Of a stretch of DNA of 64,000 bases, positions 3,540-6,648 are shown one piece after another. The notes beneath the pieces are model-generated. The model was not told the origin of the DNA, ran no database searches, and worked only from the letters and a program-made list of their open reading frames with translations. Source of the stretch: Escherichia phage ALITA; sequence record PP359570; one strand, 5' to 3'. Both the position numbers and the translations under genes were made by a program. The first letter of the stretch is position 1, and each line of letters opens with the position of its first letter.

Positions 3540-3615
3540 GGTTCCATAGCTCACTGACGAGAGCGCACACCTCATAAGTGTCGAGGGCAGGGATTGTAAC
3601 CCTGGGGAACCACCA
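3540..3615 (+). tRNA. tRNA-Met/Ile2 (anticodon CAT)
   Basis: Cloverleaf: acceptor GGTTCCA/GGGAACC, D-stem GCTC/GAGC, anticodon loop CTCATAA, T-stem CAGGG/CCCTG with atypical T-loop ATTGTAA, 3' ACCA encoded. Confidence 0.75.
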
Positions 3616-3646
3616 TTTAAAAGGAGGTGCTATGCATCTCCTATAT

Positions 3647-3732
3647 GCAAGTGTGGTGGAATTGGTGATACACATTGTGCTTAAAACGCAACGCTTAAAT
3701 GCTTGAGGGTTCGAATCCCTCCACTTGCACCA
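3647..3732 (+). tRNA. tRNA-Leu (anticodon TAA), type II
   Basis: Acceptor GCAAGTG/CACTTGC, anticodon loop CTTAAAA, 13-nt variable arm, T-loop GGGTTCGAATCCC, CCA encoded. Confidence 0.8.
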
Positions 3733-3734
3733 AC

Positions 3735-3840
3735 GCCTAGTAGGGTATTTGGTAATTCCGAGGCCATCAAAGCCTGAAAAATATGTTAGACCGTTTTGTC
3801 TAACTAAATACGAAATATGGTTCGATTCCATAACTAGGCT
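3735..3840 (+). tRNA. atypical long tRNA-like gene (about 106 nt), candidate anticodon TCA (would read UGA); Sec/Ser-like architecture
   Basis: Perfect 7-bp acceptor GCCTAGT/ACTAGGC, 6-bp D-stem with 4-nt loop, anticodon arm AGGC-CATCAAA-GCCT, long variable hairpin GTTAGAC-CGTTTT-GTCTAAC, canonical T-arm TATGG-TTCGATT-CCATA; no encoded CCA. Confidence 0.4.
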
Positions 3841-3875
3841 CCCGATTTAAATAGTAATTTTTTAATAAAAATATC

Positions 3876-3904
3876 TTGACATTTACTTAGTTTTTTGTTA
3901 TAGT
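3876..3904 (+). promoter_or_regulatory. sigma70-like promoter (-35 TTGACA 3876-3881, -10 TATAGT 3899-3904)
   Basis: Consensus hexamers, 17-bp spacer, TG upstream of -10; precedes tRNA at 3916. Confidence 0.55.
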
Positions 3905-3915
3905 CATTATGAAAA

Positions 3916-3997
3916 CGGGGTGTATCTCACCTGACTTCTAATCAGGCGTTAACCGAGTAATTGGAGTATGCAGGTTCGAATCCTGTCACCCCGGCCA
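3916..3997 (+). tRNA. tRNA-Arg-like (anticodon TCT), atypical: no canonical D-arm, 23-nt extra region
   Basis: Perfect acceptor CGGGGTG/CACCCCG, anticodon arm CCTGA-CTTCTAA-TCAGG, T-arm GCAGG-TTCGAAT-CCTGT, GCCA 3' end; only 7 nt between acceptor and anticodon stem. Confidence 0.45.
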
Positions 3998-4015
3998 AAA
4001 AGTTTTAAAAACTAC

Positions 4016-4044
4016 TTGACAAGCAAGATAGTTTTATGTTAGAT
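4016..4044 (+). promoter_or_regulatory. sigma70-like promoter (-35 TTGACA 4016-4021, -10 TTAGAT 4039-4044)
   Basis: Consensus -35, 17-bp spacer; precedes tRNA-Ser. Confidence 0.5.
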
Positions 4045-4060
4045 TTAAAGTATGGTAACA

Positions 4061-4150
4061 GGAAGGTAGGGCGCAGCGGTGCGCAACCAGGTTTGAACCC
4101 TGGCCCATTGTAGCGATACGGTGATGGTTCGACTCCATTATCTTCCTCCA
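4061..4150 (+). tRNA. tRNA-Ser (anticodon TGA), type II
   Basis: Acceptor GGAAGGT/ATCTTCC, anticodon arm CCAGG-TTTGAAC-CCTGG, long variable arm, T-loop GGTTCGACTCC, CCA encoded. Confidence 0.75.
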
Positions 4151-4168
4151 AATTCGCTTAGGAGCTTT

Positions 4169-4321
4169 ATGAATTATAAAACTATTGGACAGGTTGTTAC
4201 CGGAGTTAAGATTGTAAATAATAAAGTTGTTTATGAGTATTCTAATCTTCAACAATCTGAAGATGGTAAGAATATTTGTATGGTAAAAGCAGAACAAAAA
4301 GATTCCGGTTGTTTTGAATAA
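4169..4321 (+). CDS. hypothetical small protein (50 aa)
   Basis: ATG 4169 after SD aggag 4160-4164, immediately downstream of tRNA-Ser; ORF-track ORF 4121..4321 starts inside the tRNA so the internal ATG is preferred. Confidence 0.4.
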   Translation: MNYKTIGQVVTGVKIVNNKVVYEYSNLQQSEDGKNICMVKAEQKDSGCFE

Positions 4322-4329
4322 TTAAAAAC

Positions 4330-4415
4330 GGTAGATTGGTGAAATGGTAGCCACAACAGTTTGCTAAACTGTCGTCGGAAACGGCGTGTAGGTTCAAGTC
4401 CTACATCTACCGCCA
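4330..4415 (+). tRNA. tRNA-Ser (anticodon GCT), type II
   Basis: Acceptor GGTAGAT/ATCTACC, anticodon arm ACAGT-TTGCTAA-ACTGT, variable arm, T-arm GTAGG-TTCAAGT-CCTAC, CCA encoded. Confidence 0.8.
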
Positions 4416-4541
4416 AGTTATCTTTAATGTAGCTTGTAATCTTACTTTAGCAGAGTAAATCTTCGGCAAGTGGCAGTAACCACTTTACCGATAGCCCATA
4501 GTCAAGTGCCGCAAACACTGGCTATTTTAAAGATAATTTAT

Positions 4542-4617
4542 ACATCGTTAGCTTAGTTGGTAGAGCAAGGGGCTTTTAACTCCAAGGTCGAAGGTTCGAA
4601 TCCTTCACGATGTACCA
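4542..4617 (+). tRNA. tRNA-Lys (anticodon TTT)
   Basis: Acceptor ACATCGT/ACGATGT, D-arm GCTT-AGTTGGTA-GAGC, anticodon loop CTTTTAA, T-arm GAAGG-TTCGAAT-CCTTC, CCA encoded. Confidence 0.8.
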
Positions 4618-4622
4618 AACAC

Positions 4623-5301: not shown

Positions 5302-5315
5302 ATATTAAAAGCCTC

Positions 5316-5345
5316 TTGACAAAGGGGCTAATAATATGTTAGAGT
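5316..5345 (+). promoter_or_regulatory. sigma70-like promoter (-35 TTGACA 5316-5321, -10 TAGAGT 5340-5345)
   Basis: Consensus -35, 18-bp spacer; precedes tRNA-Gly. Confidence 0.5.
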
Positions 5346-5356
5346 AATATTGTTAA

Positions 5357-5431
5357 GCGGGTATAGTGTTAATGGTAGCATATGAGGTTTCCACCCTCCA
5401 GGTGCAGGTTCAAGTCCTGTTACTCGCTCCA
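5357..5431 (+). tRNA. tRNA-Gly (anticodon TCC)
   Basis: Acceptor GCGGGTA/TACTCGC, anticodon loop TTTCCAC, T-arm GCAGG-TTCAAGT-CCTGT, CCA encoded; resembles bacterial tRNA-Gly(UCC). Confidence 0.8.
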
Positions 5432-5530
5432 AGATTATTTAAATGGAATCGCTAGAGAAAATTTCTCTTTTCGCTCATGGTTTTCTCCTTCAAACTCTAG
5501 CGGTTCTTTTTAAGTGATTTTTAGTTTTAT

Positions 5531-5605
5531 TGGAGATTAGCCTAGTGGGAAGGCAACGGCCTTTGAAGTCGTGATGACTAGGTTCGATTCCTAGATCTCC
5601 AGCCA
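5531..5605 (+). tRNA. tRNA-Gln (anticodon TTG)
   Basis: 5' U1 with A72 (TGGAGAT/ATCTCCA) as in bacterial tRNA-Gln, anticodon arm ACGGC-CTTTGAA-GTCGT, T-arm CTAGG-TTCGATT-CCTAG, GCCA end. Confidence 0.8.
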
Positions 5606-5647
5606 ATTAATTGCATAGCATGAGTATTTCTCATTGGTTAAAAGGAG

Positions 5648-6013
5648 ATGCAAGTGAATTGTGAACATTGTGGTAGTGAGTTTACTTTGATAAAAGGTCA
5701 TGGTGGACAAAACAGATCATACTGTTACACTTGTATTCCAGAAGGTTTAGATAAACAAGTACGCACAAGATTACATCAAGAACTTAGAAGAGAGCGATCT
5801 CATAAGATGAAACTTGATTTAGGTTGCAAAGTGTGTGGTTATGCTAAATGTGCAGTAGCACTAGAATGGCATCACCCAGAGGACGATAAGAAACACGATC
5901 CATCTAATGCAATCAAAAGATCTTGGTCTGCTTACTTAGAAGAGACTGAAAAGTGTATCTTACTATGTGCCAATTGTCATAGAGAAGTACATGCTGGTCT
6001 TATACAGGTTTAA
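5648..6013 (+). CDS. HNH homing endonuclease (free-standing, inside tRNA array)
   Basis: 121-aa ORF; CxxC...CxxC zinc-binding pairs and HNH motif WHHPEDDKKHDP...LLCANCHREVH; alternative start GTG 5654 has better SD spacing. Confidence 0.85.
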   Translation: MQVNCEHCGSEFTLIKGHGGQNRSYCYTCIPEGLDKQVRTRLHQELRRERSHKMKLDLGCKVCGYAKCAVALEWHHPEDDKKHDPSNAIKRSWSAYLEETEKCILLCANCHREVHAGLIQV

Positions 6014-6014
6014 T

Positions 6015-6090
6015 CAGTGCGTAGCGCAGTTGGTAGCGTGGGAGCCTTGGACGCTTCAGGTCGCAGGTTCGAGTCCTGCCGCACTGACCA
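6015..6090 (+). tRNA. tRNA-Pro (anticodon TGG)
   Basis: Perfect acceptor CAGTGCG/CGCACTG, anticodon arm GGAGC-CTTGGAC-GCTTC, T-arm GCAGG-TTCGAGT-CCTGC, CCA encoded; starts 2 nt after HNH stop. Confidence 0.8.
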
Positions 6091-6095
6091 AATTT

Positions 6096-6170
6096 GCAGA
6101 GATAGCTGAGACGGATTAGTGCTACCCTGAAAAGGTAGAAAGGATGGATCGTTACCATCTCTCTGCACCA
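6096..6170 (+). tRNA. tRNA-Phe (anticodon GAA)
   Basis: Acceptor GCAGAGA/TCTCTGC, anticodon arm CTACC-CTGAAAA-GGTAG, T-arm GATGG-ATCGTTA-CCATC (non-canonical T-loop), CCA encoded. Confidence 0.7.
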
Positions 6171-6247
6171 GATAATACCATCCAAGGAGAATACTTGGTT
6201 AACTGTCAATAGCACATTGAGGCTTCTTACAGTGGTGTACTTATTAT

Positions 6248-6332
6248 GGCTAAGTGGTGGAATGGTATACACGATACGCTTAGAACGTATTGCCCCAAGG
6301 GATTGTGAGTTCGAGTCTCACCTTAGCTACCA
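6248..6332 (+). tRNA. tRNA-Leu (anticodon TAG), type II
   Basis: Acceptor GGCTAAG/CTTAGCT, anticodon arm ATACG-CTTAGAA-CGTAT, variable hairpin CCC-CAA-GGG, T-arm GTGAG-TTCGAGT-CTCAC, CCA encoded. Confidence 0.75.
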
Positions 6333-6347
6333 AATTATTACAGGTTT

Positions 6348-6426
6348 CGCGGGATAGAGGAGTCTGGTCGTCCTCGCCAGTTTCATATGCTGGAGATCGT
6401 AGGTTCAAATCCTACTCCCGTTACCA
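6348..6426 (+). tRNA. tRNA-Met/Ile2 (anticodon CAT), second copy
   Basis: Acceptor CGCGGGA/TCCCGTT (terminal mismatch), D-arm GAGG/CCTC, anticodon arm CCAGT-TTCATAT-GCTGG, T-arm GTAGG-TTCAAAT-CCTAC, CCA encoded. Confidence 0.6.
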
Positions 6427-6470
6427 ATAAATACCTCCCTTCTGGTGTAATGATTAAATTACATTGACAC

Positions 6471-6567
6471 TTCAAGGAACTCATAGCCGGGTAGATTTAA
6501 AAGAGTATGGTACTCAATATGGCTCCAAACCATAGATCAGGGGGTTCGATTCCTCACCTTGCTGCCA
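6471..6567 (+). pseudogene. tRNA-Trp-like element (anticodon CCA) lacking a complementary 5' acceptor strand
   Basis: Intact anticodon arm TATGG-CTCCAAA-CCATA, T-loop TTCGATT, 3' CCTTGCT-G-CCA; best 5' partner TTCAAGG lies 23 nt too far upstream. Confidence 0.3.
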
Positions 6568-6572
6568 ATTAT

Positions 6573-6648
6573 TGTGGTATCGTACAGATGGTTAGTACAC
6601 TCGACCGATAATCGAGAAACAACGGTTCGACTCCGTTTACCACGACCA
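6573..6648 (+). tRNA. tRNA-Ile (anticodon GAT)
   Basis: Acceptor TGTGGTA/TACCACG, D-arm GTAC-AGATGGTTA-GTAC, anticodon arm CTCGA-CCGATAA-TCGAG, T-arm AACGG-TTCGACT-CCGTT, CCA encoded; 76 nt. Confidence 0.85.

What the first reader, a model, noticed from the sequence alone, without database searches (positions are those of the whole stretch)
3540..6648. Dense tRNA array with several non-canonical members
About 16 tRNA genes with assignable anticodons (Met/Ile CAT x2, Leu TAA, Leu TAG, Ser TGA, Ser GCT, Lys, Tyr, Asn, Thr, Gly, Gln, Pro, Phe, Arg-like, Ile) lie within 3.1 kb, interspersed with promoters, two small ORFs and an HNH endonuclease. Several have unusual features: non-canonical T-loops in Met (ATTGTAA) and Phe (ATCGTTA), and a long variable arm in Asn. 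Anticodons were read manually and need confirmation.
Basis: seen in the sequence. Interest (0 to 1): 0.4.

Follow-up and report, generated by a model that had tools for sequence, protein, structure and literature searches.

The report
Phage tRNA array with rewired tRNA-Arg
This is the already annotated transfer-RNA gene cluster of a phi92-like E. coli phage, but its odd "Arg-like" member belongs to a widespread, apparently undescribed phage family of arginine tRNAs in which the strands of the D stem are moved around the anticodon arm.

Summary
The window is a phi92/VEcB-type Escherichia phage (98% identity), whose relatives already have this array annotated, so the array itself is known. Its cognate codons are enriched in the phage: AGA about 5x, CTA and ACA about 3.5x.

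The non-canonical members are real and conserved:
- Met and Phe carry a swapped A54-U58 T-loop pair, which recurs in phage tRNAs.
- Asn(GTT) has a long variable arm that covaries between genera.
- The second CAT tRNA looks like an initiator.

The notable result is window 3916-3997. It has a normal acceptor stem, anticodon arm and T arm, but no D hairpin. Instead, a 3-bp helix (CUC/GAG here) encloses the anticodon arm and is followed by an invariant D-loop-like UAAnnGGAGUAU. Across 129 distinct homologues this helix has 10 different sequence versions and no mismatch. Anticodons are only UCU, CCU or ACG, all arginine.

The family occurs in 253 phage records from several unrelated groups and in many metagenome contigs. 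It is absent from 5,426 E. coli genomes. I found no paper describing it. Its role as an AGA decoder is inferred, not shown.

The parts
3540..3615 (+). tRNA-Met(CAT) 'Met1', elongator-like, with a non-canonical elbow: D loop ACTGACGA (no GG) and T loop ATTGTAA (A54, U56, U58)
   Evidence: ARAGORN finds it; Rfam does not, even at E<=10. It is invariant in 5 phi92-like relatives. Related phage Met tRNAs have D loop ACTGGCGA with T loop ATCGTAA, so this copy has A19/U56 where they have G19/C56.
3647..3732 (+). tRNA-Leu(TAA)
3735..3842 (+). tRNA-like element with a perfect 7-bp acceptor stem and a canonical T arm, an insert of about 40 nt containing a 7-bp hairpin, and no encoded CCA; present in only some relatives
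   Evidence: Relaxed ARAGORN calls it Leu(CAA) with a 24-nt intron. Fold z-score is -2.5. It is absent from phi92 and ZYD, and annotated 'tRNA-OTHER' in phage cardinal.
3876..3904 (+). sigma-70-type promoter-like site (TTGACA-17-TATAGT with extended TG), 12 nt upstream of the rewired tRNA-Arg
   Evidence: 11 of 12 matches, the best in the region
3916..3997 (+). Rewired tRNA-Arg(TCT). Layout: acceptor 3916-3922 / 3987-3993; U8 A9 U10; helix X 5' strand CUC(A) 3926-3929; anticodon arm 3930-3946 (loop CUUCUAA); linker CGUUAAC; helix X 3' strand (C)GAG 3954-3957; D-loop-like UAAUUGGAGUAU 3958-3969; T arm 3970-3986; discriminator G 3994; CCA 3995-3997
   Evidence: Rfam tRNA 38.6 bits with the D arm deleted and a 20-nt insert. 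ARAGORN does not find it. Family covariation is shown. The family model scores 96 bits here and at most 26 bits on any other tRNA of the window.
4016..4045 (+). promoter-like site upstream of tRNA-Ser(TGA)
4061..4150 (+). tRNA-Ser(TGA), class II; marked as a pseudogene in the phi92 RefSeq record
   Evidence: ARAGORN. Only a sub-threshold Rfam tRNA-Sec hit. An unannotated homologue in ESCO13 has compensated stems.
4169..4321 (+). small ORF, 50 aa, unknown function
   Evidence: phrog_22441; annotated as a CDS in VEcB and phi92
4330..4415 (+). tRNA-Ser(GCT)
4416..4541 (+). structured spacer RNA with a long closing stem and three inner hairpins
   Evidence: Fold z-score -3.3. Conserved in ESCO13 and A73 with compensatory changes. 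No Rfam match.
4542..4617 (+). tRNA-Lys(TTT)
   Evidence: The D and anticodon arms are replaced in some relatives.
4623..4709 (+). tRNA-Tyr(GTA)
4717..4801 (+). tRNA-Asn(GTT) with a class-II-like body: U8 G9, 3-bp D stem GCC/GGC, variable-arm hairpin GAAC-GAAA-GTTC, discriminator G73
   Evidence: The variable-arm stem covaries in ESCO13, L175 and L113.
4806..4874 (+). tRNA-like element with an 8-nt T loop (TATCAAAT)
   Evidence: ARAGORN in mitochondrial mode. Fold z-score -3.5. Conserved in ESCO13 with a compensatory T-stem change.
4881..4955 (+). tRNA-Thr(TGT)
4978..5301 (+). ORF, 107 aa, unknown function
   Evidence: phrog_8792; annotated as a CDS in relatives
5316..5345 (+). promoter-like site upstream of tRNA-Gly
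5357..5431 (+). tRNA-Gly(TCC)
5432..5530 (+). structured spacer with a closing stem of about 23 bp
   Evidence: Fold z-score -4.1. The stem is kept in ESCO13 with a different sequence.
5531..5605 (+). tRNA-Gln(TTG)
5648..6013 (+). HNH homing endonuclease gene, inserted between tRNA-Gln and tRNA-Pro
   Evidence: phrog_2255, E 7.5e-22. Present in the window and VEcB only; absent from phi92 and four other relatives.
6015..6090 (+). tRNA-Pro(TGG)
6096..6170 (+). tRNA-Phe(GAA) with T loop ATCGTTA (A54/U58 swapped)
   Evidence: The same T loop occurs in other phage tRNAs. Marked as a pseudogene in RefSeq but invariant among relatives.
6248..6332 (+). tRNA-Leu(TAG)
6348..6426 (+). tRNA-Met(CAT) 'Met2', initiator-like: C1.U72 mismatch and A11:U24, but anticodon stem CCAGU/GCUGG and loop UUCAUAU
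   Evidence: The 1:72 mismatch is kept in relatives as A.C, U.C, C.C or C.A.
6490..6567 (+). degenerate tRNA-Trp(CCA)-like element with a poor acceptor stem
   Evidence: Relaxed ARAGORN. Weak Rfam hit of 22 bits. Only 1 variable site among relatives.
6573..6648 (+). tRNA-Ile(GAT)

Best explanation
The region is the tRNA gene cluster of a phi92/VEcB-type virulent E. coli phage (Justusliebigvirus). It is read from several strong sigma-70-type promoters as multi-tRNA transcripts, and all 16 genes encode their own CCA end. The set matches codons that the AT-rich phage uses far more than its host does (AGA, CUA, ACA, GGA, UUA, AUA). It also includes the tRNA species now known to be cut by host anti-phage nucleases: Lys-UUU, Tyr-GUA, Thr-UGU and Asn-GUU. 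So the cluster most likely keeps phage translation running by topping up, or replacing, host tRNAs.

The 'Arg-like' gene at 3916-3997 is the phage's only tRNA for AGA/AGG, and it has a non-standard architecture. Its acceptor stem, T arm and anticodon arm are canonical, but it has no D hairpin. After U8-A9-U10 comes a 3-nt strand (CUC) that runs straight into the anticodon stem. After the anticodon arm comes a conserved linker (CRUUAAN). Then comes the partner strand (GAG), then an invariant D-loop-like stretch UAAnnGGAGUAU that leads into the T stem.

In effect, the segment that would be nucleotides 10-21 of a normal tRNA has moved to the 3' side of the anticodon arm. This is a circular permutation of the D/anticodon domain and gives a three-way junction. 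The pieces needed for an L shape and for recognition by arginyl-tRNA synthetase are still present: a short helix that could stack on the anticodon stem, a GG that could reach the T loop, the A that follows the GG (the position-20 equivalent), C35, U36 and a G or A discriminator.

Shown here: the sequence family, its secondary structure by covariation, its restriction to arginine anticodons, its distribution in phages, and the phage's AGA usage. Inferred: transcription, processing, charging with arginine, decoding, and any selective reason for the rewiring.
For: Identity of the array. The region is 98.2% identical over 3.9 kb to Escherichia phage VEcB and also matches phi92. Both have annotated tRNAs at the same places.

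Codon match. In window ORFs, AGA is 10.9, CTA 10.3 and ACA 29.9 per 1000 codons. In 68 annotated E. coli K-12 genes the figures are 2.1, 3.0 and 8.4.

Rewired tRNA-Arg, structure:
- The Rfam alignment deletes the D arm and inserts 20 nt after the anticodon arm.
- 41, then 129, distinct homologues were collected from phage records, IMG/VR and metagenomes.
- In the 41-sequence alignment the acceptor, anticodon and T helices are 99% paired, 15 of their pairs show changes on both sides, and 0 of 500 shuffles reach the observed values. The 60-sequence set gives 95-99% pairing.
- In the enclosing helix, pair 11:42 is C-G in all 129 sequences. Pair 12:41 is U-A 87, G-C 20, A-U 19 and C-G 3, with none unpaired. 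Pair 13:40 is C-G 115, G-C 7, U-A 5 and U-G 2, with none unpaired (the 60-sequence set agrees).
- Rival pairings show no double changes.

Rewired tRNA-Arg, arginine identity:
- Anticodons are UCU 123, CCU 5 and ACU 1 in the scan that fixed positions 35-36.
- The scan that left the anticodon free found only UCU and CCU.
- A topology-only scan over all fetched loci gave UCU 81, CCU 3 and ACG 1, all arginine.
- The discriminator is G in 76 and A in 45 of 129.
- GGAGUAUG is invariant even where the search pattern did not force it.
- The window's copy shares its acceptor stem, T arm and G73 with the canonical tRNA-Arg(UCU) of T5-like phages.
- The sister genus Phapecoctavirus has a canonical tRNA-Arg(UCU) in the homologous array instead.
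- All 13 tRNAs annotated in the VEcB record lie in this array and none is Arg.

In 6 of 70 loci it is the only tRNA present.

The family is absent from 5,426 E. coli genomes. Among one genome per species for 185,579 species, it appears in only 5 MAG contigs.
Against: - No expression, processing, aminoacylation or decoding data exist for this RNA in anything I could search.
- RNAalifold does not predict the 3-bp enclosing helix. It returns only the three long helices. For the single sequence, RNAfold prefers a small variable-arm hairpin. The helix therefore rests on covariation alone.
- The fourth position of that helix (14:39) is mostly an A.C or C.A mismatch.
- The homologues were collected with sequence patterns that fix parts of the molecule. 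Diversity is therefore under-sampled, and the invariance of the fixed parts is partly built in.
- Whether a bacterial ribosome, EF-Tu, RNase P and ArgRS accept a three-way-junction tRNA is untested.
- Some annotation pipelines already call this gene tRNA-Arg(TCT) or tRNA-OTHER, so the gene itself, though not its architecture, is already in databases.
- Why the rewiring would be advantageous is unknown.
Confidence: 0.72

Rival explanations
1. The Arg-like element is a decaying tRNA pseudogene or a false positive of the covariance model, and the other odd members (Met 3540, Phe 6096, Ser-TGA 4061, which RefSeq marks as pseudogenes or omits) are likewise dead copies.
For: ARAGORN does not find 3916-3997 at any threshold. 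Its Rfam score is the lowest of the 14 hits. Phe and Ser-TGA carry pseudogene flags in RefSeq, and Met 3540 is left unannotated in VEcB. The degenerate Trp-like copy at 6490-6567 shows that this array does contain degenerate-looking elements.
Against: The Arg element is conserved at 82-89% between unrelated phage groups. It has 129 distinct homologues whose four helices covary and whose single-stranded core has about 18 invariant positions.

Met 3540, Phe 6096, Ser 4061 and Asn 4717 have no variable site among five relatives, while the other intergenic DNA varies at 8.4% of sites. The unusual T loops follow a rule: A54 goes with U58 in 26 tRNAs, and T54/T58 never occurs.
Confidence: 0.03
2. 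The rewired RNA is not a translational adaptor. It is a tRNA mimic that keeps an arginine-type anticodon loop and elbow in order to bind something. It might act as a decoy for a host nuclease or toxin that attacks tRNA-Arg, as a sponge for ArgRS or a modification enzyme, or as a processing signal in the transcript.
For: The architecture departs from what bacterial translation factors normally handle. In Kuravirus, Bas93 and A73 the gene lacks an encoded CCA, and its flanks form a long inverted repeat that extends the acceptor stem. This looks more like an embedded structured element than a standard tRNA gene. It often lies next to HNH genes. Two other tRNA-like elements of the array (4806-4874 and 3735-3842) cannot plausibly decode, so non-decoding tRNA mimics do occur here.
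Against: The anticodon varies only among arginine triplets (UCU, CCU, ACG) while the stems change freely. That pattern is expected for a decoder. A decoy of one particular tRNA would be expected to keep a single loop sequence.

Most copies encode CCA and have a G or A discriminator. The phage uses AGA five times more than its host and has no other tRNA for it. A sister genus fills the same slot with a canonical tRNA-Arg(UCU).
Confidence: 0.15
3. The array exists mainly as an anti-defence device, supplying nuclease-resistant replacements for host tRNAs cleaved by systems such as PARIS, PrrC, retron-Eco7 PtuAB or P2 OLD. On this view the non-canonical features (swapped T loop, long variable arm on Asn, altered anticodon loop of the initiator-like Met, rewired Arg) are escape changes rather than neutral drift or codon compensation.
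For: Lys-UUU, Tyr-GUA, Asn-GUU and Thr-UGU lie side by side at 4542-4955. Published work shows that phage Tyr-GUA, Lys-UUU and Thr-UGU tRNAs rescue cells from PtuAB, AriB and P2 OLD, and that OLD also cuts tRNA-Asn (PMC12445682; see also PMC10264068, PMC11555353 and PMC11464382).

The Lys gene has had its D and anticodon arms swapped out in some relatives, while its acceptor and T arms stayed identical. The codons for Lys, Tyr, Asn, Phe and Ile are not enriched in the phage, so codon compensation does not explain those members.
Against: The strongest codon enrichments (AGA, CUA, ACA, GGA) fit plain codon compensation. No nuclease specific for tRNA-Arg(UCU), or for a D-arm feature, came up in the papers I searched. 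The two explanations are not exclusive.
Confidence: 0.4
4. The tRNA-Asn(GTT) with a long variable arm is not charged with asparagine. Its serine-like body lets seryl-tRNA synthetase charge it, so it inserts Ser at AAY codons. This would be deliberate mistranslation, like the nematode variable-arm tRNAs.
For: It has U8-G9, a 3-bp D stem GCC/GGC (which gives C11:G24), a variable-arm hairpin and G73. After its own homologues, the closest tRNA bodies in a set of about 1,300 phage tRNAs are Ser tRNAs. SerRS does not read the anticodon (own knowledge).
Against: The anticodon stem-loop CGGACUGUUAAUCCG matches that of host tRNA-Asn as I recall it (own knowledge, not checked here), and G73 is also an AsnRS determinant. 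The acceptor stem starts G1-C72, A2-U71, U3-A70, which is not the G2:C71 of bacterial tRNA-Ser. The variable-arm stem has only 4 bp. Body similarity to Ser tRNAs is weak (0.41-0.46). Proteome-wide Asn-to-Ser replacement would be costly.
Confidence: 0.08

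Closest known systems
tRNA gene clusters of large virulent coliphages (phi92, VEcB, rV5-like, Felix O1, T5, T4)
   Same: The position, gene order and sequences match phi92 and VEcB at about 98%. The tRNAs are interspersed with promoters, small ORFs and HNH homing endonucleases. The set is biased towards codons that are rare in the host.
   Different: Nothing about the array as a whole. Relative to phi92, this copy carries two insertions: the tRNA-like element at 3735-3842 and the HNH gene at 5648-6013.
Canonical phage tRNA-Arg(UCU), for example in T5-like phages (TrudiGerster 68625-68699) and Phapecoctavirus ESCO13
   Same: The anticodon loop CUUCUAA is the same. For the T5-like gene, so are the acceptor stem (CGGGGUG/CACCyCG), the T arm and discriminator G73. 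It occupies the same slot in the homologous array of the sister genus.
   Different: The canonical genes have a normal D hairpin (stem, AAGGGAUA-type loop, stem) before the anticodon arm and a 4-5 nt variable loop. The window's gene has neither. Its D-stem strands flank the anticodon arm, and the D-loop-like sequence follows it.
D-arm-lacking mitochondrial tRNA-Ser(AGY/AGN) of metazoa (review PMC7609411; PMC4013460)
   Same: Both form a three-way junction with no D hairpin. Both have a helix that lengthens the anticodon stem towards the core. Curiously, both read the AGN codon family (GCU or UCU anticodons).
   Different: The mitochondrial tRNAs have a short D-replacement loop on the 5' side, degenerate T loops and no G18-G19/T-loop elbow, and they work with specialised mitochondrial factors. 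The phage tRNA keeps a canonical T loop and a GG-containing, D-loop-like strand placed 3' of the anticodon arm. It carries arginine identity marks and must work with the ordinary E. coli machinery.
Circularly permuted tRNA genes of Cyanidioschyzon merolae and other algae (own knowledge)
   Same: In both, the order of tRNA segments in the gene differs from the canonical order.
   Different: In the algal genes the whole 3' half precedes the 5' half, and processing through a circular intermediate restores a normal mature tRNA. Here only the D/anticodon domain is permuted, the ends of the molecule are normal, and no processing route to a canonical tRNA is apparent. The mature RNA should therefore keep the new topology.
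tRNAs with non-standard cloverleaves from metagenomes (allo-tRNAs with 8/4 or 9/3 acceptor/T stems, PMC5389517) and nematode variable-arm tRNAs (own knowledge)
   Same: These are naturally occurring, conserved departures from the standard cloverleaf, some found in phages. The long-variable-arm tRNA-Asn of this array resembles the nematode case, where a class-II body carries a class-I anticodon.
   Different: [quoted passage not shown] The rewired tRNA-Arg keeps the 7/5 arrangement and changes the D domain. That paper has one passing 'D-arm' mention and no 'UCU' in its main text, and describes no such tRNA.

Membership tests
phi92-type (Justusliebigvirus) tRNA cluster | Near-identical sequence and the same gene order as the annotated arrays of phi92 and VEcB | tested here: met
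   98.2% identity over 3,901 nt to VEcB and 98.5% over 86% to phi92. The annotated tRNAs are at corresponding positions.
Canonical cloverleaf tRNA (Rfam RF00005), applied to 3916-3997 | Score at or above the family gathering score | tested here: met
   38.6 bits against a gathering score of 29
Canonical cloverleaf tRNA (Rfam RF00005), applied to 3916-3997 | 7-bp acceptor stem, 5-bp anticodon stem with 7-nt loop, 5-bp T stem with a TTCRANY loop | tested here: met
   CGGGGUG/CACCCCG; CCUGA-CUUCUAA-UCAGG; GCAGG-UUCGAAU-CCUGU. All three helices covary in the family.
Canonical cloverleaf tRNA (Rfam RF00005), applied to 3916-3997 | D stem-loop (positions 10-25) between the acceptor stem and the anticodon stem | tested here: not met
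   Only 7 nt (UAUCUCA) lie between the two stems. Rfam deletes 15 model positions there, and ARAGORN finds no tRNA.
Rewired (D-domain-permuted) tRNA-Arg family defined here | A 3-bp Watson-Crick helix (columns 11-13 with 40-42) that encloses the anticodon arm | tested here: met
   The window has CUC/GAG. In 129 homologues the pairs are 11:42 C-G 129; 12:41 U-A 87, G-C 20, A-U 19, C-G 3; 13:40 C-G 115, G-C 7, U-A 5, U-G 2. None is mismatched. RNAalifold does not predict the helix from energy.
Rewired (D-domain-permuted) tRNA-Arg family defined here | Invariant core strands U8 A9 Y10, CRUUAA and UAAnnGGAGUAU | tested here: met
   All are present in the window copy. The family model scores 96.2 bits, E 9e-25.
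tRNA-Arg identity set for E. coli ArgRS (A20, C35, U36 or G36, A73 or G73; own knowledge of the identity rules) | C35, U36 or G36, and a purine discriminator | tested here: met
   The anticodon is UCU here, and only UCU, CCU or ACG in the family. The discriminator is G here, and G 76 / A 45 of 129 in the family.
tRNA-Arg identity set for E. coli ArgRS (A20, C35, U36 or G36, A73 or G73; own knowledge of the identity rules) | A at position 20 of the D loop | tested here: inconclusive
   An invariant A follows the invariant GG (UGGAG) in the D-loop-like strand. Whether it occupies the position-20 site in three dimensions cannot be told from sequence.
tRNA-Arg identity set for E. coli ArgRS (A20, C35, U36 or G36, A73 or G73; own knowledge of the identity rules) | Aminoacylation with arginine | not testable with these tools
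   Needs biochemistry
Mitochondrial D-arm-lacking tRNA-Ser(AGY) | No D hairpin; a single-stranded D-replacement loop between the acceptor and anticodon stems; loss of the G18G19/T-loop elbow; organellar origin | tested here: not met
   There is no D hairpin, which fits. But the canonical T loop UUCGAAU and a GG strand are retained, the connector is 3 nt plus a helix strand, and the gene is in a coliphage.
Permuted tRNA genes (algal type) | 3' half encoded upstream of the 5' half, with processing to a canonical tRNA | tested here: not met
   The acceptor 5' and 3' strands are in normal order at the two ends of the gene.
Class II tRNA (long variable arm), applied to Asn 4717-4801 | A base-paired variable arm between the anticodon and T arms | tested here: met
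   GAAC-GAAA-GUUC. The stem is flipped to GUUC/GAAC in ESCO13 and is GUCC/GGGC and GAGC/GCUC in L175 and L113.
Class II tRNA (long variable arm), applied to Asn 4717-4801 | Isotype Leu, Ser, Tyr or Sec (the only bacterial class II isotypes; own knowledge) | tested here: not met
   The anticodon is GUU in a CUGUUAA loop.
Bacterial initiator tRNA-fMet, applied to Met 6348-6426 | Mismatch at pair 1:72 | tested here: met
   C1.U72 here. Relatives have A.C, U.C, C.C, U.U or C.A.
Bacterial initiator tRNA-fMet, applied to Met 6348-6426 | A11:U24 in the D stem | tested here: met
   The D stem is GAGG/CCUC, read from the sequence.
Bacterial initiator tRNA-fMet, applied to Met 6348-6426 | Three consecutive G:C pairs at the bottom of the anticodon stem | tested here: not met
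   The stem is CCAGU/GCUGG and the loop is UUCAUAU. The more distant relative L193 keeps GGG/CCC.

The most novel reading that the evidence does not exclude
The gene at 3916-3997 represents a new architectural class of working tRNA. It is a three-way-junction tRNA-Arg whose D/anticodon domain is circularly permuted: the D-stem strands flank the anticodon arm and the D-loop sequence follows it. On this reading it is charged by the ordinary host ArgRS and used on ordinary bacterial ribosomes by several unrelated groups of virulent phages (253 sequenced phage records, plus many metagenome contigs), but by no sequenced E. coli. If so, the cloverleaf order of segments is not required for tRNA function in bacteria. 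The rewiring may have spread because it protects the phage's AGA decoder from a host factor that recognises the normal D arm or tRNA core.
Probability: 0.45. Interest if true: 0.8.

Novelty: new variant of a known kind. Interest (0 to 1): 0.6.

Why it matters
The array itself is ordinary for a large coliphage and is already annotated in relatives. The rewired tRNA-Arg is what would matter.

- It would be, to my knowledge, the first conserved tRNA outside organelles that lacks a D hairpin, and the first in which the D-domain strands are permuted.
- It would have to work with the well-studied E. coli translation apparatus, so every step can be tested directly: RNase P, CCA end, ArgRS, EF-Tu, ribosome and modification enzymes.
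- It sits in easily grown phages: phi92-like, Felix O1-like, PBECO4-like and phages of the BASEL collection.
- ARAGORN misses the gene, and many GenBank records leave it unannotated or call it tRNA-OTHER. Phage tRNA censuses and codon-compensation analyses therefore under-count the tRNA for AGA, one of the rarest E. coli codons (2.1 per 1000).
- It offers a natural scaffold for engineering orthogonal tRNAs.
- It gives a concrete lead for a still unknown host activity that would select against a normal D arm.

The other conserved oddities support the emerging view that phage tRNAs diversify under pressure from tRNA-targeting defences. These are the A54-U58 swap, the class-II-like Asn, the initiator-like Met with an altered anticodon arm, and the mosaic Lys gene.

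Tried and rejected
- ARAGORN with relaxed thresholds, intron mode and mitochondrial mode never gave a sensible model on 3916-3997.
- A variable-arm hairpin (columns 38-41 with 46-49, the RNAfold minimum-energy structure of the single sequence) was tested. It showed only one-sided changes, and one pair was unpaired in 19 of 41 sequences. The larger set excluded it, because columns 40-41 covary with 12-13.
- Pairing of CUC with the second GAG (columns 49-51) was tested. It was rejected because column 12 varies among all four bases while column 50 is invariant.
- RNAalifold on 60 sequences does not return the short enclosing helix. This is reported as a weakness.
- My first regular-expression scan for the topology returned nothing because of a parsing flaw. 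It was rewritten as an explicit enumeration.
- Pfam found no HNH domain in ORF 5648-6013. PHROGs did.
- My first codon-usage control on E. coli used raw ORFs and was contaminated by spurious frames. It was replaced by annotated genes.
- Nine successful literature searches, by words and by the conserved sequence itself, found no description of the rewired tRNA. Neither did two reviews of non-canonical tRNAs. One search call failed on a term that was too short.
- I could not decide whether either CAT tRNA is a lysidine-dependent tRNA-Ile2.
- I could not resolve what the tRNA-like element at 3735-3842 is, because it has no distant homologues.
- tRNAscan-SE, RNA 3D modelling and R-scape were not available.

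Full report
**Where the window comes from.** The 3.9 kb around the finding is 98.2% identical to Escherichia phage VEcB and 98.5% identical to phi92 over the shared parts (genus Justusliebigvirus, Stephanstirmvirinae). Both records annotate a tRNA array at the corresponding place, between the nicotinamide phosphoribosyltransferase gene and the terminase region. The array as such is therefore already known.

**Checking the observation.** ARAGORN finds 15 tRNA genes between 3540 and 6648, all on the + strand. Rfam's tRNA model finds 14. The union is 16 genes, and all 16 anticodons agree with the manual reading. ARAGORN's drawings confirm three things:
- the T loops ATTGTAA (Met 3540) and ATCGTTA (Phe 6096);
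- the variable-arm hairpin of Asn;
- an encoded CCA on all 15 genes it drew; the Arg-like gene carries its own at 3995-3997.

Four promoter-like sites of the form TTGACA-N17/18-TAnnnT, each with an extended TG, start at 3206, 3876, 4016 and 5316. There are ORFs at 4169-4321 and 4978-5301. The ORF at 5648-6013 is an HNH endonuclease by PHROGs, though not by Pfam. It is an insertion found only in the window and VEcB.

**What the array is for.** I compared codon counts in the window's long ORFs with 68 annotated E. coli K-12 genes. Per 1000 codons, phage versus host:

| Codon | Window ORFs | E. coli genes |
|---|---|---|
| AGA | 10.9 | 2.1 |
| CUA | 10.3 | 3.0 |
| ACA | 29.9 | 8.4 |
| GGA | 14.9 | 5.6 |
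| UUA | 21.7 | 10.8 |
| AUA | 8.8 | 3.9 |

The codons for Lys, Tyr, Asn, Phe and Ile(AUC) are not enriched. Those tRNAs include Lys-UUU, Tyr-GUA, Asn-GUU and Thr-UGU, which lie side by side at 4542-4955. These are the species reported as targets of PARIS AriB, retron-Eco7 PtuAB and P2 OLD, and phage copies of them rescue cells from those nucleases (PMC12445682; further papers). Codon supplementation and replacement of cleaved host tRNAs both fit, and they do not exclude each other.

**The Arg-like gene: first look.** Rfam's alignment shows a normal acceptor stem, anticodon arm (loop CUUCUAA) and T arm. However, 15 model positions of the D arm are replaced by 4 nt, and there is a 20-nt insert after the anticodon arm. 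A blastn search with its surroundings found the 80-nt element alone conserved at 82-89% in quite different phages, nearly always unannotated or labelled tRNA-OTHER:
- Felixounavirus;
- Klebsiella T5-like phages;
- Asteriusvirus jumbo phages;
- Kuravirus;
- Mydovirus and other Vequintavirinae;
- the BASEL phage Bas93.

In all, 253 phage records hold a full-length copy.

**The Arg-like gene: homologues and the three main helices.** Together with the phage records they gave 41 and then 129 distinct sequences. In the 41-sequence alignment the acceptor, anticodon and T helices are each 99% paired, 15 of their pairs show changes on both sides, and none of 500 column shuffles reaches the observed values. 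The 60-sequence set gives 95-99% pairing.

**The Arg-like gene: the enclosing helix.** The 3 nt after U8-A9-Y10 pair with the 3 nt that follow a conserved linker on the far side of the anticodon arm. Over the 129 sequences (the 60-sequence alignment agrees):

| Pair | Types seen | Unpaired |
|---|---|---|
| 11:42 | C-G 129 | 0 |
| 12:41 | U-A 87, G-C 20, A-U 19, C-G 3 | 0 |
| 13:40 | C-G 115, G-C 7, U-A 5, U-G 2 | 0 |

In these 129 sequences the 5' strand of the helix takes ten different sequences, and its partner strand matches every time. The next position, 14:39, is usually A.C or C.A.

Two rival pairings were tested and show no double changes. They are also incompatible with the larger set. 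RNAalifold, which relies mainly on energy, returns only the three long helices. The short helix therefore rests on covariation, not thermodynamics.

After the helix comes UAAnnGGAGUAU, which is invariant even in sequences found with a pattern that did not fix it. It reads like a D loop (A14, R15, two variable bases, G18, G19, A20, R21) followed by three nucleotides that lead into the T stem.

Read against the standard numbering, the order of segments is: 1-7, 8-9, [22-25], [27-43], linker, [10-13], [14-21], T arm, 66-73. This is a circular permutation of the D/anticodon domain, and the molecule is a three-way junction.

**Why I read it as a tRNA-Arg.**
- With positions 35-36 fixed by the search pattern, the first anticodon base is U in 123 sequences, C in 5 and A in 1, and never G, which would give Ser.
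- With the anticodon left free, only UCU and CCU appeared among real family members.
- The covariance model R1 and a topology-only scan of all fetched loci found one more variant. It has the same layout, a shorter linker and the anticodon ACG in a CUACGAA loop. The topology scan gave UCU 81, CCU 3 and ACG 1.
- All three anticodons are arginine.
- The discriminator is G or A in 121 of 129 sequences.
- The window's copy shares its acceptor stem, T arm and G73 with the canonical tRNA-Arg(UCU) of T5-like phages.
- The sister genus Phapecoctavirus has a canonical 75-nt tRNA-Arg(UCU) in the homologous array. VEcB's 13 annotated tRNAs include no Arg.
- In 6 of 70 loci the element is the only tRNA, as expected for the tRNA that is most limiting in E. 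coli.
- The best promoter-like site of the region ends 12 nt upstream of the gene.

**Distribution of the family.** It is absent from 5,426 complete E. coli genomes. In the species-level genome collection it occurs only on five MAG contigs. It therefore appears to be a phage-borne gene.

**Is it described?** Nine successful full-text searches found nothing on this architecture, including a search for the conserved sequence itself. Two reviews of non-canonical tRNAs do not mention it either. One paper on Shigella phage Sf14 lists an 'Arg TCT, CTTCTAA' tRNA between Ile-GAT and Ser-TGA, the same relative position the element has in Felixounavirus loci, and makes no structural remark. The gene is thus sometimes annotated, but its architecture seems unreported. 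The library does not cover subscription journals or the older T5 literature, so this is not proof of novelty.

**The other unusual members.**
- Met 3540 and Phe 6096 have A54 and U58 in place of T54 and A58. Among 780 distinct phage tRNAs in the fetched loci, 680 have T/A, 26 have A/T across 12 anticodon types, and none has T/T. This is therefore a covarying swap of the reverse-Hoogsteen pair, not decay.
- Met 3540 also has A19 and U56 where related phage Met tRNAs have G19 and C56.
- The long variable arm of Asn-GTT is kept in the sister genus with all four stem pairs flipped, and in two metagenomic phages with other stems. Its body is class II-like and its anticodon arm is Asn-like. Charging by AsnRS is the likelier reading, but SerRS cannot be excluded.
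- Met 6348 has the initiator marks of a 1:72 mismatch (kept in relatives with different bases) and A11:U24. It lacks the three G:C pairs, and its loop is UUCAUAU.
- Ser-TGA has a compensated, unannotated homologue in ESCO13.
- Among five phi92-like relatives the 16 tRNAs vary at 2.5% of sites, nearly all of them in Lys and Met 6348. Other intergenic DNA varies at 8.4%. Met 3540, Phe, Asn and Ser-TGA have no variable site.

**Verdict.** The added value is that its 'Arg-like' member belongs to a widespread phage family of arginine tRNAs with a permuted D domain. The family is well supported by covariation and apparently undescribed. Its function as an AGA/AGG decoder is a reasoned inference that still needs experiments.

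Noticed in passing
window 4416-4541: A 126-nt spacer between tRNA-Ser(GCT) and tRNA-Lys folds into a long closing stem with three inner hairpins (z -3.3). It is conserved at about 89-91% in ESCO13 (Phapecoctavirus) and A73 (Vequintavirinae), with compensatory changes in the closing stem and one hairpin. No Rfam family matches. It may be a stable RNA like the unexplained species C and D RNAs of the T4 tRNA cluster (own knowledge).
   Followed up: partly
window 5432-5530: The spacer between tRNA-Gly and tRNA-Gln forms a closing stem of about 23 bp (z -4.1). ESCO13 keeps the stem with a different sequence. The conserved core is the reverse complement of a ribosome-binding site plus ATG and a mini-ORF of about 8 codons on the minus strand.
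   Followed up: partly
window 4806-4874: A tRNA-like element with an acceptor stem, a palindromic 'anticodon' hairpin and a T arm whose loop has 8 nt (TATCAAAT). ESCO13 has a homologue with a compensatory T-stem change (GTAGG/CCTAC to GCAGG/CCTGC). It is probably not a decoder and may be a processing signal.
   Followed up: partly
window 3735-3842: A tRNA-like element with a perfect 7-bp acceptor stem and a canonical T arm, but an insert of about 40 nt with a 7-bp hairpin, an unclear anticodon (UCA with A33, or CAA with an intron) and no CCA. It is a 127-nt indel: present in the window, VEcB and inny, absent from phi92 and ZYD. It is annotated tRNA-OTHER in phage cardinal.
   Followed up: partly
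window 6490-6567: A degenerate tRNA-Trp(CCA)-like sequence with a good anticodon arm and T arm but a poorly paired acceptor stem. It is still nearly invariant (1 variable site) among phi92-like genomes.
   Followed up: partly
window 4542-4617 (tRNA-Lys): In some phi92-like relatives (for example L022) the D arm and anticodon arm of tRNA-Lys(UUU) are replaced by a different sequence (15 variable sites at 4553-4588), while the acceptor and T arms are identical. This mosaic pattern fits diversifying pressure from Lys-tRNA nucleases such as PARIS or PrrC.
   Followed up: no
L005 1500-1578, L008 1499-1577, L009 1499-1577: In Kuravirus HC-25922, Bas93 and A73 the rewired tRNA-Arg has no encoded CCA (GCTA instead). 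Its flanks form a long inverted repeat that extends the acceptor stem by 10-13 bp (for example AAGAGCTTCTAGC ... GCTAGAAGCTCTT). This suggests a different processing route, or a mobile cassette.
   Followed up: no
L060 2689-2763 and L045 13348-13426: These are divergent members of the rewired family. One has anticodon ACG (Arg, CGN) and a 3-nt linker. The other has UCU and a D-loop-like TAATTGGATAGAAC. L045 carries two rewired genes (CCU and UCU) about 350 nt apart.
   Followed up: partly
window 5648-6013: The HNH endonuclease gene sits exactly between tRNA-Gln and tRNA-Pro. It is missing from phi92 and four other relatives, where the two tRNAs are almost adjacent. HNH genes also lie next to the rewired tRNA-Arg in Roth37, Bas93 and SME50.
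   Followed up: partly
L208 (ESCO13) about 6330-6455 and 6075-6150: The ESCO13 record leaves at least two tRNA genes unannotated: a Tyr(GTA)-like class II tRNA downstream of the structured spacer, and a Ser(TGA) tRNA downstream of the conserved promoter.
   Followed up: no
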